From Ruditapes philippinarum (Eukaryota), in the NCBI RefSeq assembly GCF_026571515.1, contig NW_026852865.1, positions 1-64,000 on the forward strand: a stretch of DNA of 64,000 nucleotides, in the 5' to 3' direction. This document shows, piece after piece, positions 59,601 through 62,600 of the stretch (within the stretch, counting starts at the first letter, position 1; each line of letters begins with the position of its first letter). The position numbers are program-made.

Positions 59601-62600
59601 GGTGGTTTTGTCAAACTACCGGTTCGGCGAATTTTATTTATGAAGAGGTGCGAAAGTGGTTTTGTCGATCTTATTTTATATAGTAATTAAAGGCGAAGTT
59701 GGCATGGTTCGTCTATATAAAGTGGTTTTATCATCAATATGTTTGTTGTAATCAAATTATGAAGCAAAATTTCATTAATGAATAGAATATATTGTTGATG
59801 TATGTCTATATACAATACCTATTTTGGTAATGATTTGTTTGTTACTTGATTAATTATTTTTGAGAAAAGAATATTAAAAAAAATAATTGGAGCCTTATTC
59901 GACGCCTGGGACAAGTTCGAAGATGATGAGATGACTACTTCCCAACTACTGAGATTATGTAGCCACATTTCAGGAATAGGATCCAACAACTTCAACAACA
60001 GGATTTATGAGGACCATTCTTAAGTTTTATATTGAGTGATGAATAAAGAATAAAAACAGATTGTTGTTGTTTATTAATATTACGTAAAAAACATAGTAGA
60101 TTCTCTTTAATACTATGCATGTGTCAATTGTTTATATAGAGATGAATAAAGTATTTTAAAAAGATGTGTTGTTTATTACGTACAAAATCATGGCACAAAT
60201 TTTTCTTATTTTCAATTTTTACATGTTTTTGTATGTCTTGTTTTTTGTGTATATACTTAAATTATAAAATACATTCCTTCTCTTCCAGGTTTTATTTTAC
60301 TGTGTATAATGTCGATTTTATTCCTAAATAACATTCGTCCTTTTTCAGCTTTTACCATTTGTGAATACAGTTTAACATAGATTATAAAAAAATGTTTTTC
60401 TCTTTTCAGGCTTCACTTATATACGTACATGTATATATTTTTATGATGTTGTTTGTTTACTGAGATCTTTTGTATTGAGTTATGCTTTTATGTAAAATAT
60501 AACTATTATACTAAAGAAAATAATAAATAATAGGTTTAAATTTTCAATATCTTGTCTTTAGTTGCATGAAAATGTGTGATAAACAACAGATTAAGACCCA
60601 CGATAATTGACGTGCCCTATATACAATAGGTATTTTTTGCATTATATAAATTAAGTTCGCTGAAACCACAACCTGTTTTATTATATAAGATTAGTTCGCC
60701 GAACCGATAGTTCGACAAAACCACTCTCACCCTTATGTACCCATCTGGTGTGTATCAAATTCAAAAGCAAAATGCCAGGTACCAAATTTCAAAAGGATTT
60801 GTCATTAGATAAAAAAAAACCTTTATTCTTTGTTCATTTAACTTTATAAAAAAAACTCTTTCATATATCAGACCATAATTTACAACTTCGGGACATGGCA
60901 TTTAAGACTTCAGTTGCATCTGAACAAGGGTCTTATAAAATAAATACACAGTAGCTTCTGTTCTCTCTTTATGCATCTTAACTCTGGTCCCCCCATTATC
61001 AAACTCAAATTGATCAGATATAATCTGTCAAATTCTTTTTCAGTTTTAAATAGACATTCATACAAAACCCATACTGCACATGGCTCACTTGTGACAGATT
61101 TGGTAATCGCGTTTGTCATAAATTTCCAACACATTTTTACCTCATCCATCCTGTTATCTTTCCTATCAGGCCAGGCCCTCGATATTCCTTATCATGTTTA
61201 TGTAGTGGAAGCATCCTTTCTTTTAAATAATCTGCTGTAGTTATTAAAAAATCATTAATTTTTCAGTCAAAACATTTTAAGGAAACAGCTGTCGTGGCCG
61301 GTTGTTATTTCTAGGATGAAGTAAGAAGTTTTCCGCATGATTTTCCATCTATATTTATAGCAAAAAATTCGAATGAAAATTTGTGTAAAAGAGGAAATAA
61401 TTATATACTGATGATATAAAATATTACAAAATGAATATTTCATGAAATTCATTTATCCTTTTTAATATCATAATTAAAAACTTAATACAATTACCTCTAA
61501 GTTCGAAACAAACATATCAGCTTTACTTGTAAACTCCAATATGGAAGGAAAGTGAAACTTCGCAACTAAAATAAAAATATTTTCAATTATATTTTACTAA
61601 TTTTGCTTTGTCAGCTCTATTTCTTTTCAGTGAACGGTGATCTGCAATATTGAACGTATTTTCAATGAATAAATTGGCAATTTTACCTCACCTTACCAAC
61701 AAATACACATCTTTTGCTGGTGCTTTAAAATTTGTAAAAACTAGCAAGAATTTTTACTATGTGGATAGGCCAGCAGGTTGTAGATGTATGGCAAGCAAAT
61801 GTGAGCGATTTGGCGATGAGGATACTGCAACTTTTAAACCAAGAAGAGTAGTTATATTATCGCGCATAACCAGATATGAATTTGAAAAACTACGCCACAA
61901 AGATTCTACAGAGGAGCAATTCAAAAGCAAGGTTAGACTTCAAATGCTAGGACAATAGCAAAGAGTATAGCTCCCAAACCATCACAATCTCATGATATAT
62001 AATGGATGTAAATATTCGGGTGCCCTTGTTTTGCCAGATTCACAAACTTTTTAAAATTCAATTTTTATTGTAACAGAAAAAAATTAACATGTATGTAGAT
62101 CTGTTTGTGAGATCTTAATTTTCCCTCTCTTTTTTAAAGAAAAAAGGGGATATAGAAATGTCCTTATCTGTCCATCTGATTGTCTGTCACACTTTTGTGT
62201 CCGGTCCATAACATTGAAATAACTTGGCACAATGTTTGTAATAATAAGACAATGTGGACACCCGGACCCCTACCTCCAAGATCAAGGTTATAATTGGGGG
62301 TCAAAGCTTAACATTGTCCATTATACAGGTATATTTTGTGTCCAGTATATAACTTTTTCATCAATAAAGGAATTTTAAAATAACTTTGCACAAATGTTAA
62401 CAAAGATAAGACAACATGTCATGTATGTCACAGGGTGAGAAAAATGTGCAGCCTGACTGGGACTCGAACCCAGGACCCTCTGAACATCATACCTACTGAG
62501 CTATCCAGCGGCATACACATCATCTTCCCTAAATAGTGAACAGTTCTGAACTGATTGAGCTATTCGGCCGCTTACATATCGCTCCCCTAAGTAGTGAATA

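What the first reader, a model, noticed from the sequence alone, without database searches (positions are those of the whole stretch)
61141..61931. ZnT7 and NADK2 appear to have interdigitated 5' ends, each leader exon inside the other gene's first intron
The two start codons are only ~450 bp apart (61214 minus, 61665 plus), and each is closely preceded by a good splice acceptor, so both genes probably need an upstream leader exon. Plus strand: Inr-like TCAGTC 61263, donor GAA/gtaaga 61321, branch point, pyrimidine tract and cag at 61630. Minus strand: Inr-like TCACTT ~61553, donor GAG/gtaatt 61494, acceptor cagcag 61237-61232. This puts the NADK2 start inside ZnT7 intron 1 and the ZnT7 start inside NADK2 intron 1. 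The two promoters would fire towards each other, pre-mRNAs would overlap ~290 nt in antisense, and the mature mRNAs would not overlap. Transcriptional interference could couple a secretory-pathway Zn transporter to mitochondrial NADP(H) supply. Splice motifs are seen; TSS use and coupling are inference.
Basis: partly seen in the sequence, partly recalled or inferred. Interest (0 to 1): 0.72.

Follow-up and report, generated by a model that had tools for sequence, protein, structure and literature searches.

The report
Head-to-head clam genes, possibly overlapping starts
Two clam genes (a zinc transporter and a mitochondrial NAD kinase) sit back to back with start codons 451 bases apart, and the sequence hints, without proving, that their untranslated first exons cross over, an arrangement already well known in other animals.

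Summary
ZnT7 (minus strand, ATG at 61214) and NADK2 (plus strand, ATG at 61665) are real genes lying head to head.

I scored splice sites with matrices trained on the 11 donors and 10 acceptors of these two genes.
- Each pair is matched by only about 1-2% of non-exonic 450-nt intervals of the same window.
- Both pairs together are matched by 0.09% of intervals, and by 0 of 3000 dinucleotide shuffles.
- By a crude consensus count, only the NADK2 acceptor stands out.

No tool here holds clam transcripts or other mollusc genomes. Transcription start sites, splice junctions and conservation of the arrangement therefore stayed untested.

My estimates:
- About 0.5 that the two transcription units overlap at their 5' ends, through at least one spliced leader.
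- About 0.35 for an ordinary non-overlapping bidirectional promoter.

The proposed Zn/NADP(H) coupling has no support. 5'-overlapping head-to-head coding pairs are a catalogued class (582 human pairs, PMC5753363). At most this is a new member of a known kind, of low interest.

The parts
49175..61214 (-). ZnT7 (SLC30A7-like) gene, coding part. 11 coding exons: 61214-61141, 57345-57244, 56570-56457, 56041-55954, 55031-54902, 54174-54130, 53059-52934, 52110-51975, 51139-51049, 50405-50256, 49222-49178, then the stop codon at 49177-49175.
   Evidence: The exon table totals 1101 nt with consistent phases. Pfam Cation_efflux was found exon by exon. tblastn with the Mercenaria, Mizuhopecten and Dreissena ZnT7 proteins maps the exons. 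All 10 introns are GT-AG.
61141..61214 (-). ZnT7 coding exon 1 (Met to the split Arg codon), followed by donor AG|GTAAAA.
   Evidence: It is 96% identical over 25 residues to the N-terminus of Mercenaria 'zinc transporter 7-B-like' P0008. The MLPLH start (MLPQH in one) is shared by the 7 named mollusc proteins printed.
61665..61931 (+). NADK2 coding exon 1 (89 codons); the donor GT is at 61932.
   Evidence: It is 100% identical, with 100% coverage, to residues 1-89 of P0001, NAD kinase 2 mitochondrial-like [Ruditapes philippinarum]. An in-frame TGA lies at 61638-61640 (ORF start). There is a weak match to human NADK2 chain 7n29_A, E = 0.008.
61215..61664 (.). The 450-nt interval between the two start codons, taken as the shared promoter and 5'UTR region.
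   Evidence: It is unique within the window. CpG o/e is 0.88 for 61251-61750, against 0.35 window-wide and a 95th percentile of 0.79. There are 7 plus-strand and 8 minus-strand ATGs, against 9.9 expected per strand.
61263..61320 (+). Candidate untranslated NADK2 leader exon. Its 3' end is set by donor GAA|GTAAGA.
   Evidence: Donor matrix score is 8.6, reached by 48 of 6797 GT sites and above 7 of 11 real donors. It is the only plus-strand donor scoring 8 or more within 3.7 kb upstream of the acceptor. GC is 0.40. It contains one ATG, at 61316. The Inr-like motif also reads as a weak acceptor, TTTTTCAG|TC, score 4.2.
61321..61630 (+). Candidate NADK2 5'UTR intron (310 nt), with TACTAAT at 61595-61601, a pyrimidine tract and a terminal CAG. 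An alternative acceptor would start the exon at 61615.
   Evidence: Acceptor score is 9.0, reached by 77 of 6680 AG sites and above 5 of 10 real acceptors. The alternative at 61615 scores 8.4. Pyrimidines make up 12 of 15 tract positions, a class found once per 1391 nt. The branch-like motif adds little: only 2 of 10 real acceptors have CTRAY, against a 10.4% background.
61495..61555 (-). Candidate untranslated ZnT7 leader exon. Its 5' end is unknown; its 3' end is set by donor GAG|GTAATT.
   Evidence: Donor score is 8.8, reached by 44 of 6797 GT sites and above 8 of 11 real donors. GC is 0.34. It contains one ATG, at 61515. Nine other minus-strand donors scoring 8 or more lie further upstream, at 61691-63414.
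61235..61494 (-). Candidate ZnT7 5'UTR intron (260 nt) ending in CAG, with a second CAG 3 nt further on.
   Evidence: The first acceptor scores 7.6, reached by 158 of 6680 AG sites and above 3 of 10 real acceptors. The second scores 3.2, reached by 931 of 6680. Pyrimidines make up only 9 of 15 tract positions, a class found once per 170 nt. No CTRAY lies in the branch zone.
61321..61494 (.). Very AT-rich core (GC 0.20). It is shared by both candidate introns in the overlap model, or is the central promoter in the ordinary bidirectional model.
   Evidence: GC in 40-nt bins is 0.15-0.20, against 0.33-0.42 on either side.

Best explanation
This is a compact head-to-head pair of housekeeping-type genes in a venerid clam: ZnT7 on the minus strand and mitochondrial NAD kinase NADK2 on the plus strand. 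They share a 450-nt, AT-rich, CpG-undepleted promoter region.

Most likely at least one of the two mRNAs, NADK2 first, begins with a short untranslated leader exon. That leader would be spliced across the interval to an acceptor just upstream of the ATG (61321 to 61630). This places its start site within about 100 nt of the partner's ATG, so the two transcription units overlap at their 5' ends.

The gene identities, start codons, orientation, spacing and the quality of the splice signals are shown. The use of those signals, the start-site positions and any overlap are inferred. I expect no special regulatory coupling. The likely consequence is shared promoter chromatin with co-expression or independence, as in other 5'-overlapping coding pairs.
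For: - Gene identities and start codons are established.
- Tail probabilities against 8012 non-exonic intervals: 0.011-0.014 (plus), 0.018-0.023 (minus), 0.0009 joint.
- The result is robust to the allowed ATG-acceptor distance of 40-150 nt.
- It is robust across regions and strands: 0.4-2.1% (plus) and 1.6-3.7% (minus) in the three larger regions. None of the 158 intervals of NADK2 intron 1 reached either value.
- 0 of 126 non-overlapping intervals and 0 of 3000 dinucleotide shuffles match both strands.
- The plus donor at 61321 is the only strong plus-strand donor within 3.7 kb upstream.
- The interval is single-copy in the window, so the signals are not carried by a repeat.
- CpG o/e is high over 59-61.8 kb, as expected for a promoter zone.
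- The class exists: 23% of human divergent pairs less than 1 kb apart have overlapping 5' ends (PMC10887517, passage). First exons and the 5' ends of first introns are hotspots of antisense start sites (PMC1865042, abstract and passages).
Against: - There is no transcript, cap or junction evidence of any kind.
- The matrices rest on only 11 donors and 10 acceptors from this window.
- By a plain consensus count, three of the four sites are unremarkable.
- The candidate introns (310 and 260 nt) are shorter than all 10 real ZnT7 introns.
- Each candidate leader holds an ATG.
- In humans, 5'UTR introns are rarer in membrane and mitochondrial protein genes, which are the two classes here (PMC5311483, start of abstract in the search listing).
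- The GC islands at 61261-61340 and 61501-61560 can equally be read as the contiguous 5'UTRs of the opposite genes, flanking an AT-rich core promoter.
- The NCBI-named NADK2 protein confirms only the coding start, not the UTR.
Confidence: 0.5

Rival explanations
1. Ordinary bidirectional promoter without overlap. ZnT7 starts at about 61260-61340 and NADK2 at about 61500-61600, each with a contiguous 5'UTR of roughly 50-160 nt. The AT-rich core 61321-61494 is the shared nucleosome-poor promoter. The splice-like motifs are unused.
For: - 450 nt fits two ordinary 5'UTRs plus a 150-200 nt core.
- The GC profile shows an AT-rich core (0.20) flanked by richer segments (0.34-0.42) next to each ATG.
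- High CpG o/e fits a promoter zone.
- The last 121 nt before the NADK2 ATG hold no ATG.
- Most human divergent pairs less than 1 kb apart do not overlap: 77%, per the PMC10887517 passage.
- Membrane and mitochondrial genes are depleted in 5'UTR introns in humans (listing).
- The crude consensus count finds three of the four sites common.
Against: It must ascribe to chance a pair of donor/acceptor combinations that both strands reach in 0.09% of null intervals, 0 of 126 non-overlapping intervals and 0 of 3000 shuffles. A contiguous ZnT7 5'UTR longer than 41 nt would carry upstream ATGs at 61255 and 61275.
Confidence: 0.35
2. The reader's exact model, which is a special case of the best explanation. 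Both genes have a leader exon (plus about 61263-61320, minus about 61555-61495), each inside the other's 5'UTR intron. The pre-mRNAs would overlap by about 290 nt and the mature mRNAs would not overlap.
For: The same statistics as above apply, and both pairs are the top combinations on their strands. The two candidate leaders coincide with the two GC-richer islands. Geometry forces interdigitation if both introns are used.
Against: - The minus acceptor is moderate (above 3 of 10 real sites) with a poor pyrimidine tract of 9 of 15.
- The Inr-like motifs are common by base composition, and the plus one doubles as a weak acceptor.
- Each core promoter would have to lie inside the partner's 5'UTR or first coding exon.
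- My rough Bayesian estimate (inference, not a call) gives about 0.5 for the plus intron and about 0.33 for the minus intron.
Confidence: 0.25
3. The leader exons exist but lie further away, beyond the partner's first coding exon. The NADK2 leader would sit inside ZnT7 intron 1 and the ZnT7 leader inside NADK2 intron 1, giving a larger nested overlap.
For: The NADK2 acceptor is good whatever donor feeds it. One further plus-strand donor scoring 8 or more lies at 57613. Nine further minus-strand donors scoring 8 or more lie at 61691-63414. CpG o/e is also high at 59.0-60.7 kb.
Against: The nearest strong donors are the ones inside the interval. Nothing else marks those distant sites. The region 61932-64000 holds low-CpG, repeat-bearing intron sequence.
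Confidence: 0.08
4. The ATG-proximal acceptors receive a trans-spliced leader, so no cis leader exon is needed.
For: Its only support is that acceptors lie 34 nt and 20 nt upstream of the two ATGs.
Against: Spliced-leader trans-splicing has not been reported in molluscs to my knowledge (recalled). My one search listed no paper reporting it in molluscs among the 10 shown of 330. The passages read (PMC7854359) report its absence in annelids only. Rfam found no SL RNA or any other RNA family in the window. Strong cis donors are present upstream.
Confidence: 0.02

Closest known systems
5'-overlapping head-to-head protein-coding gene pairs (OverGeneDB class; Rosikiewicz et al., PMC5753363 and PMC8076222, abstracts read)
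   Same: Two protein-coding genes on opposite strands whose start sites each lie downstream of the partner's, so the pre-mRNAs are antisense over the 5' ends. The overlap involves untranslated first exons and first introns.
   Different: Here the overlap is only predicted from splice signals. In that class it is defined by mapped start sites, which I could not obtain. The catalogued overlaps are rarely conserved and depend on tissue. Nothing of that kind is known for this clam locus.
Classical bidirectional promoter pairs (divergent start sites less than 1 kb apart; 11% of human genes per the PMC10887517 passage citing Trinklein et al.)
   Same: Head-to-head orientation, start codons 451 nt apart, a shared short CpG-undepleted interval, and housekeeping-type genes.
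   Different: Vertebrate examples sit in GC-rich CpG islands. This interval has 20-40% GC and is TATA-like throughout. Whether the start sites diverge or cross is unknown.
[quoted passage not shown] 2007, PMC1865042, abstract and passages read)
   Same: That paper interprets such antisense transcripts as alternative starts of the head-to-head partner.
   Different: That study concerns human CpG-island genes with long first introns (average about 14.8 kb). Here the candidate introns are 260-310 nt.
Convergent-promoter switches and RNA polymerase II collision (PMC10887517 passages; PMC3504299, start of abstract in the search listing only)
   Different: Those switches are described mostly for lineage-determining transcription factors and receptor families paired with a non-coding antisense partner. 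For coding pairs overlapping at 5' ends, no down-regulation was found (PMC8076222 abstract).

Membership tests
ZnT7 / SLC30A7 (cation diffusion facilitator) | Cation_efflux (PF01545) transmembrane domain | tested here: met
   Searched exon by exon. Exon 3 ORF scores 34.3 bits and exon 8 ORF 36.7 bits, against a cut-off of 26.6. Exons 4 and 5 score 24.5 and 13.0 bits, below the cut-off, as expected for fragments. Profile positions run in order from 16 to 190 of 198.
ZnT7 / SLC30A7 (cation diffusion facilitator) | Closest named relatives are ZnT7 rather than other ZnT paralogues, and the conserved N-terminus is present | tested here: met
   Named hits to the exon 8 ORF are 'zinc transporter 7(-like)' from molluscs. 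All exons align to Mercenaria ZnT7-B-like P0008. Exon 1 is 96% identical over 25 residues. The N-terminus reads MLPLH in 6 of 7 named proteins printed and MLPQH in the seventh.
ZnT7 / SLC30A7 (cation diffusion facilitator) | His-rich cytosolic loop (feature recalled, not taken from a call) | tested here: met
   HGHSH-type repeats occur in exons 5-7. The summed exons give 367 codons, against 380 aa in Mercenaria.
NADK2 (mitochondrial NAD kinase) | Sequence identity to an annotated NADK2, including the start codon | tested here: met
   Exon 1 equals residues 1-89 of P0001 at 100% identity and 100% coverage. The conserved block PRRVVILSRITRYEFEK aligns to human NADK2 chains 7n29_A and 7r4j_A, E = 0.008 and 0.012.
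NADK2 (mitochondrial NAD kinase) | NAD_kinase catalytic domain (PF01513) | not testable with these tools
   The domain is precomputed for P0001, but its exons lie beyond the window end. Exon 1 alone has no Pfam hit.
Bidirectional (head-to-head) gene pair | Opposite strands, divergent orientation, 5' ends less than 1 kb apart | tested here: met
   The ATGs lie at 61214 (minus) and 61665 (plus). The distance between start sites themselves was not measurable.
5'-overlapping head-to-head coding pair | Each gene's start site lies downstream of the partner's start site | not testable with these tools
5'-overlapping head-to-head coding pair | Splice signals able to join an upstream leader exon to the ATG exon on both strands | tested here: met
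   P is about 0.01-0.02 per strand and 0.0009 joint; 0 of 3000 shuffles match both strands. By the crude consensus count only the plus acceptor is rare.
Transcriptional-interference coupling of the two genes | Mutually exclusive or anticorrelated expression from one template | not testable with these tools
   No expression data were available. NADK2 and SLC30A7 co-occur in only 2 papers of the library; judged from titles and abstracts alone, both are broad expression screens.

The most novel reading that the evidence does not exclude
The two promoters really do face each other, each buried in the other's 5'UTR intron. The arrangement would be conserved in imparidentian bivalves: Dreissena has both genes on a scaffold of the same length, 51,057,412 nt. 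It would work as a template-level toggle, so that a cell favours either Golgi zinc loading or mitochondrial NADP(H) production under metal or oxidative stress.
Probability: 0.04. Interest if true: 0.5.

Novelty: new member of a known kind. Interest (0 to 1): 0.2.

Why it matters
[quoted passage not shown] Each core promoter would lie in the other's 5'UTR intron, and the whole arrangement would fit in about 450 nt. That makes it easy to examine by expression and comparative data.

It would not change how such pairs are understood. Hundreds are catalogued in human and mouse, and overlap there does not predict repression. The practical value is for annotation: both genes' UTR exons, and the fact that ZnT7 and NADK2 are neighbours in this clam, should be checked against transcript data.

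Tried and rejected
1. **Clam ZnT7 protein or transcript-derived ORF extending upstream of the Met.** I searched with the exon 8 ORF and with the 41-residue ORF around the start. Neither returned a protein of this species; one search gave only Mercenaria P0008 among 4 candidates. In one search I ran tblastn with all 126 returned proteins against the window. Apart from NADK2 P0001, no protein averaged more than 87.5% identity over its matches. These searches therefore gave no transcript-level information.
2. **The listing of cluster members on P0001**, to see isoforms and alternative N-termini.
3. **A repeat or transposon as the source of the splice-like motifs.** Rejected: the interval has no other copy in the window.
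4. **A fully position-specific acceptor matrix.** It was overfitted to 10 sites, with one real site scoring -6.3. I replaced it with a pooled-tract model.
5. **The TACTAAT branch point as extra evidence.** It is weak, because only 2 of 10 real acceptors carry CTRAY, against a 10.4% background.
6. **Oyster ZnT7-UTP23 fused models as a clue to the 5' neighbour.** Uninformative: ZnT7 is the N-terminal part of the fused model, and UTP23 has no match in the window.
7. **Structural RNAs or tRNAs in the window.** None were found.
8. **Literature on the intron structure of ZnT7's 5'UTR.** Nothing relevant appeared among the 8 papers listed of 2,304.
9. **Not done.**
   - The sigma-70 promoter scanner and the bacterial genome collection were not used, as they do not apply to an animal locus.
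   - Spliced models were searched exon by exon only. The joined mRNA and CDS step was left out, so the upstream reading frames across the candidate junctions were not worked out.
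Full report
**What the window is**

The window has no N. It has 32% GC and a CpG o/e of 0.35. It is not human. The plus-strand exon at 61665-61931 is 100% identical over its whole length to the first 89 residues of P0001, which NCBI names 'NAD kinase 2, mitochondrial-like [Ruditapes philippinarum]'. 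The locus is therefore from that clam or a very close relative.

**The two genes**

- **NADK2 (plus strand).** P0001 starts at the same Met as the ATG at 61665. It leaves the exon at the GT at 61932. An in-frame TGA at 61638-61640 closes the frame upstream. The conserved block after the presequence aligns weakly to human NADK2 structures 7n29 and 7r4j, E = 0.008 and 0.012.
- **ZnT7 (minus strand).** I mapped 11 coding exons from 61214 to 49178.
  - I used tblastn with the Mercenaria, Mizuhopecten and Dreissena ZnT7 proteins, then read the junctions.
  - All 10 introns are GT-AG and measure 415-3795 nt.
  - The exon lengths sum to 1101 nt with consistent phases.
  - Pfam Cation_efflux is found exon by exon, in profile order.
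  - The start is MLPLH in 6 of the 7 named mollusc ZnT7 proteins I printed and MLPQH in the seventh. The ATG at 61214 is therefore the conserved start.
- **A limit on the method.** Spliced models were searched exon by exon only. As a result I give no upstream reading frames across the candidate junctions.

**Checking the observation**

| Strand | Feature | Position |
|---|---|---|
| plus | TCAGTC (Inr-like) | 61263-61268 |
| plus | GAA\|GTAAGA donor, first intron base | 61321 |
| plus | TACTAAT (branch-like) | 61595-61601 |
| plus | pyrimidine tract and CAG, last base | 61630 |
| minus | TCACTT (Inr-like) | 61555-61550 |
| minus | GAG\|GTAATT donor, first intron base | 61494 |
| minus | CAGCAG acceptor | 61237-61232 |

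The ATGs are 451 nt apart.

**Is it more than chance?**

I trained a 9-position donor matrix on the 11 real donors: 10 from ZnT7 and 1 from NADK2. I trained an acceptor model on the 10 real acceptors, using pooled tract composition plus the last five positions. I then scored every GT and AG on both strands of the window.

| Site | Score | Sites in the window scoring at least as high | Real sites it beats |
|---|---|---|---|
| Plus donor 61321 | 8.6 | 48 of 6797 GT | 7 of 11 |
| Minus donor 61494 | 8.8 | 44 of 6797 GT | 8 of 11 |
| Plus acceptor 61631 | 9.0 | 77 of 6680 AG | 5 of 10 |
| First minus acceptor 61234 | 7.6 | 158 of 6680 AG | 3 of 10 |
| Second minus acceptor 61231 | 3.2 | 931 of 6680 AG | 1 of 10 |

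For a locus-level test I took, for each strand, the best sum of two scores: an acceptor within 60 nt upstream of the ATG, and a donor at least 50 nt further upstream inside the 450-nt interval. Results against the nulls:

- **8012 overlapping non-exonic intervals:** 1.1-1.4% reach the plus value, 1.8-2.3% the minus value, and 0.09% reach both.
- **Non-overlapping intervals:** 2 of 252 and 7 of 252 strand tests reach the values; both strands of one interval, 0 of 126.
- **3000 dinucleotide-preserving shuffles of the interval:** 17, 47 and 0.
- **Changing the allowed ATG-acceptor distance (40-150 nt):** tails stay at 0.7-2.6% and 1.6-5.0%.
- **Splitting the null by region and strand:** 0.4-2.1% and 1.6-3.7% in the three larger regions. 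None of the 158 intervals of NADK2 intron 1 reached either value.

Results on the other side:

- The matrices rest on 21 sites.
- A plain count of matches to MAG|GTRAGT puts the plus donor in a class found once per 111 nt and the minus donor once per 430 nt.
- The minus acceptor's tract (9 of 15 pyrimidines) is of a kind found once per 170 nt. Only the plus acceptor (12 of 15) is rare, at once per 1391 nt.
- The interval holds 11 acceptor-like sites of that loose class, where about 5 are expected.
- The TACTAAT adds little. Only 2 of 10 real acceptors here have any CTRAY in the branch zone, against 10.4% of all AG sites.
- The Inr-like hexamers are common by base composition. The plus one also reads as a weak acceptor, score 4.2.

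**What else the sequence says**

- The interval is single-copy in the window, so no repeat carries the signals.
- CpG o/e is 0.88 at 61251-61750 and 0.6-1.4 over most of 59.0-61.8 kb. The window median is 0.29 and the 95th percentile 0.79. This fits an unmethylated promoter zone around both 5' ends.
- GC is 0.40 and 0.34 in the two candidate leaders, 0.20 in the core 61321-61494, and 0.14-0.23 in the other parts of the candidate introns. This fits exon-like leaders. It fits equally well a central AT-rich promoter flanked by the contiguous 5'UTRs of the opposite genes.
- Each candidate leader has one ATG, at 61316 and 61515. The 121 nt before the NADK2 ATG have none. A contiguous ZnT7 5'UTR longer than 41 nt would include ATGs at 61255 and 61275.
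- The candidate introns (310 and 260 nt) are shorter than every real ZnT7 intron.
- On the plus strand the only other donor scoring 8 or more within 5 kb upstream is at 57613. On the minus strand nine more lie upstream, at 61691-63414.

**Weighing the models (inference, not a call)**

I started from three assumptions:
- a prior of roughly one gene in four having a 5'UTR intron;
- a small fraction of such introns fitting inside 450 nt with the acceptor near the ATG;
- likelihood ratios of about 25-50 from the tails above.

The human figure for the first is 35%, and lower for membrane and mitochondrial genes (PMC2864569 and PMC5311483, starts of abstracts seen in the search listing).

From these I estimate:
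- about 0.5 that the NADK2 intron is real;
- about 0.33 that the ZnT7 intron is real;
- about 0.25-0.35 that neither is real.

If only the NADK2 leader is real, its start site would lie within about 100 nt of the ZnT7 ATG. An overlap with an ordinary-length ZnT7 5'UTR would then still be likely. Overall I put 5' overlap of the two transcription units at about 0.5.

**What stayed unchecked**

- **No transcript evidence.** The protein searches returned no ZnT7 protein of this species.
- **One hint of conserved linkage.** Dreissena NADK2 (P0006) and Dreissena ZnT7 (P0029) are both reported on a contig of 51,057,412 nt. This suggests the same chromosome-scale scaffold, not adjacency.
- **Supplements.** Paper supplements were closed and none was consulted. 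Those of the OverGeneDB papers might list whether the vertebrate orthologues form such pairs.

**Comparison with what is known**

- Head-to-head pairs less than 1 kb apart make up 11% of human genes, and 23% of those have overlapping 5' ends (PMC10887517, passage read).
- OverGeneDB lists 582 human and 113 mouse protein-coding pairs transcribed from overlapping promoters. The overlap is rarely conserved between species or tissues (PMC5753363, abstract).
- Overlap was not found to lower expression (PMC8076222, abstract).
[quoted passage not shown] These can be alternative starts of the head-to-head partner (PMC1865042, abstract and passages).
- Convergent promoters can act as switches, mainly described for transcription factors and receptor families (PMC10887517 passages).
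- NADK2 and SLC30A7 are co-mentioned in only 2 papers of the library. Judged from titles and abstracts alone, both are broad expression screens. No functional link is in print in that library.

**Verdict**

Its regulatory extension is speculation. Even if true, it is a new member of a known kind. Interest 0.2.

Noticed in passing
10290-11732 and 37748-39185; also 58561-59348: A 1.44-kb element is present twice in direct orientation at 95.9% identity. Each copy holds about 4 tandem copies of a 163-bp unit (arrays at 10368-11033 and 37820-38480). A relative about 70% identical, in the opposite orientation, has 4.8 copies of a 164-bp unit and lies in ZnT7 intron 1. It resembles the satellite-bearing mobile elements described in bivalves (recalled, not tested).
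   Followed up: partly
55560-55800, 21503-21632, 33753-33907, 14885-15038, 49904-50002, and short pieces at 28003-28032 and 26824-26864: A dispersed repeat of about 130-200 bp, with copies 70-97% identical to the query copy, occurs on both strands, including in ZnT7 introns. It gives recurring pseudo-ORFs of the '...AIQLAYG..VPEIM...' type with no Pfam match.
   Followed up: partly
28253-28519 (+), 30373-30705 (+), 33449-33682 (+): These are exons of a plus-strand gene with an ankyrin repeat (Ank_5, E = 4.6e-5) and a C3HC4 RING finger (E = 2.8e-12). A further Cys-rich ORF had no Pfam hit. The combination looks like the 3' part of a mind-bomb-type E3 ligase (the name is recalled, not tested).
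   Followed up: partly
59000-61800: CpG o/e is 0.6-1.4 in most 500-nt bins (one bin, 60751-61250, is at 0.33). The window-wide value is 0.35 and the 95th percentile 0.79. The CpG-undepleted zone therefore extends about 2 kb into ZnT7 intron 1, well beyond the 450-nt interval.
   Followed up: no
ZnT7 locus 49175-61214: No protein of this species matching the window's ZnT7 came back from two searches, whereas the neighbouring NADK2 protein is present and named. The ZnT7 model may be missing or different in the public annotation.
   Followed up: partly
Proteins P0006 and P0029 (Dreissena polymorpha): The Dreissena NADK2 and ZnT7 proteins are both listed on a contig of 51,057,412 nt. This suggests that linkage of the two genes is older than the venerid clams. 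Adjacency could not be checked.
   Followed up: no
Proteins P0037 and P0050 (oysters): These oyster gene models combine a ZnT7 part with the rRNA-processing protein UTP23. In P0037 the ZnT7 part is N-terminal (residues 1-368 of 680); in P0050 only the C-terminal half of ZnT7 is present, at residues 146-298 of 609. UTP23 is therefore the likely 3' neighbour in oysters. tblastn of these models found only ZnT7 exons in the window, so UTP23 is not within 11 kb downstream here.
   Followed up: yes
54902-55031, 54130-54174, 52934-53059: The His-rich loop of ZnT7 is spread over three exons (5-7). The summed exon lengths give 367 codons, against 380 aa in the Mercenaria protein.
   Followed up: partly
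1461-2042, 19989-20622, 21929-22999: Further tandem arrays are present: 51 bp x 11.4, 19 bp x 33.7 and 156 bp x 6.9.
   Followed up: no
Proteins P0003 and P0004 (Mya arenaria): Two Mya NADK2 models share everything from 'GLVGNKDKYG' onward but have different N-termini. This points to alternative first coding exons in that clam. In the present window the whole presequence is in one exon.
   Followed up: no
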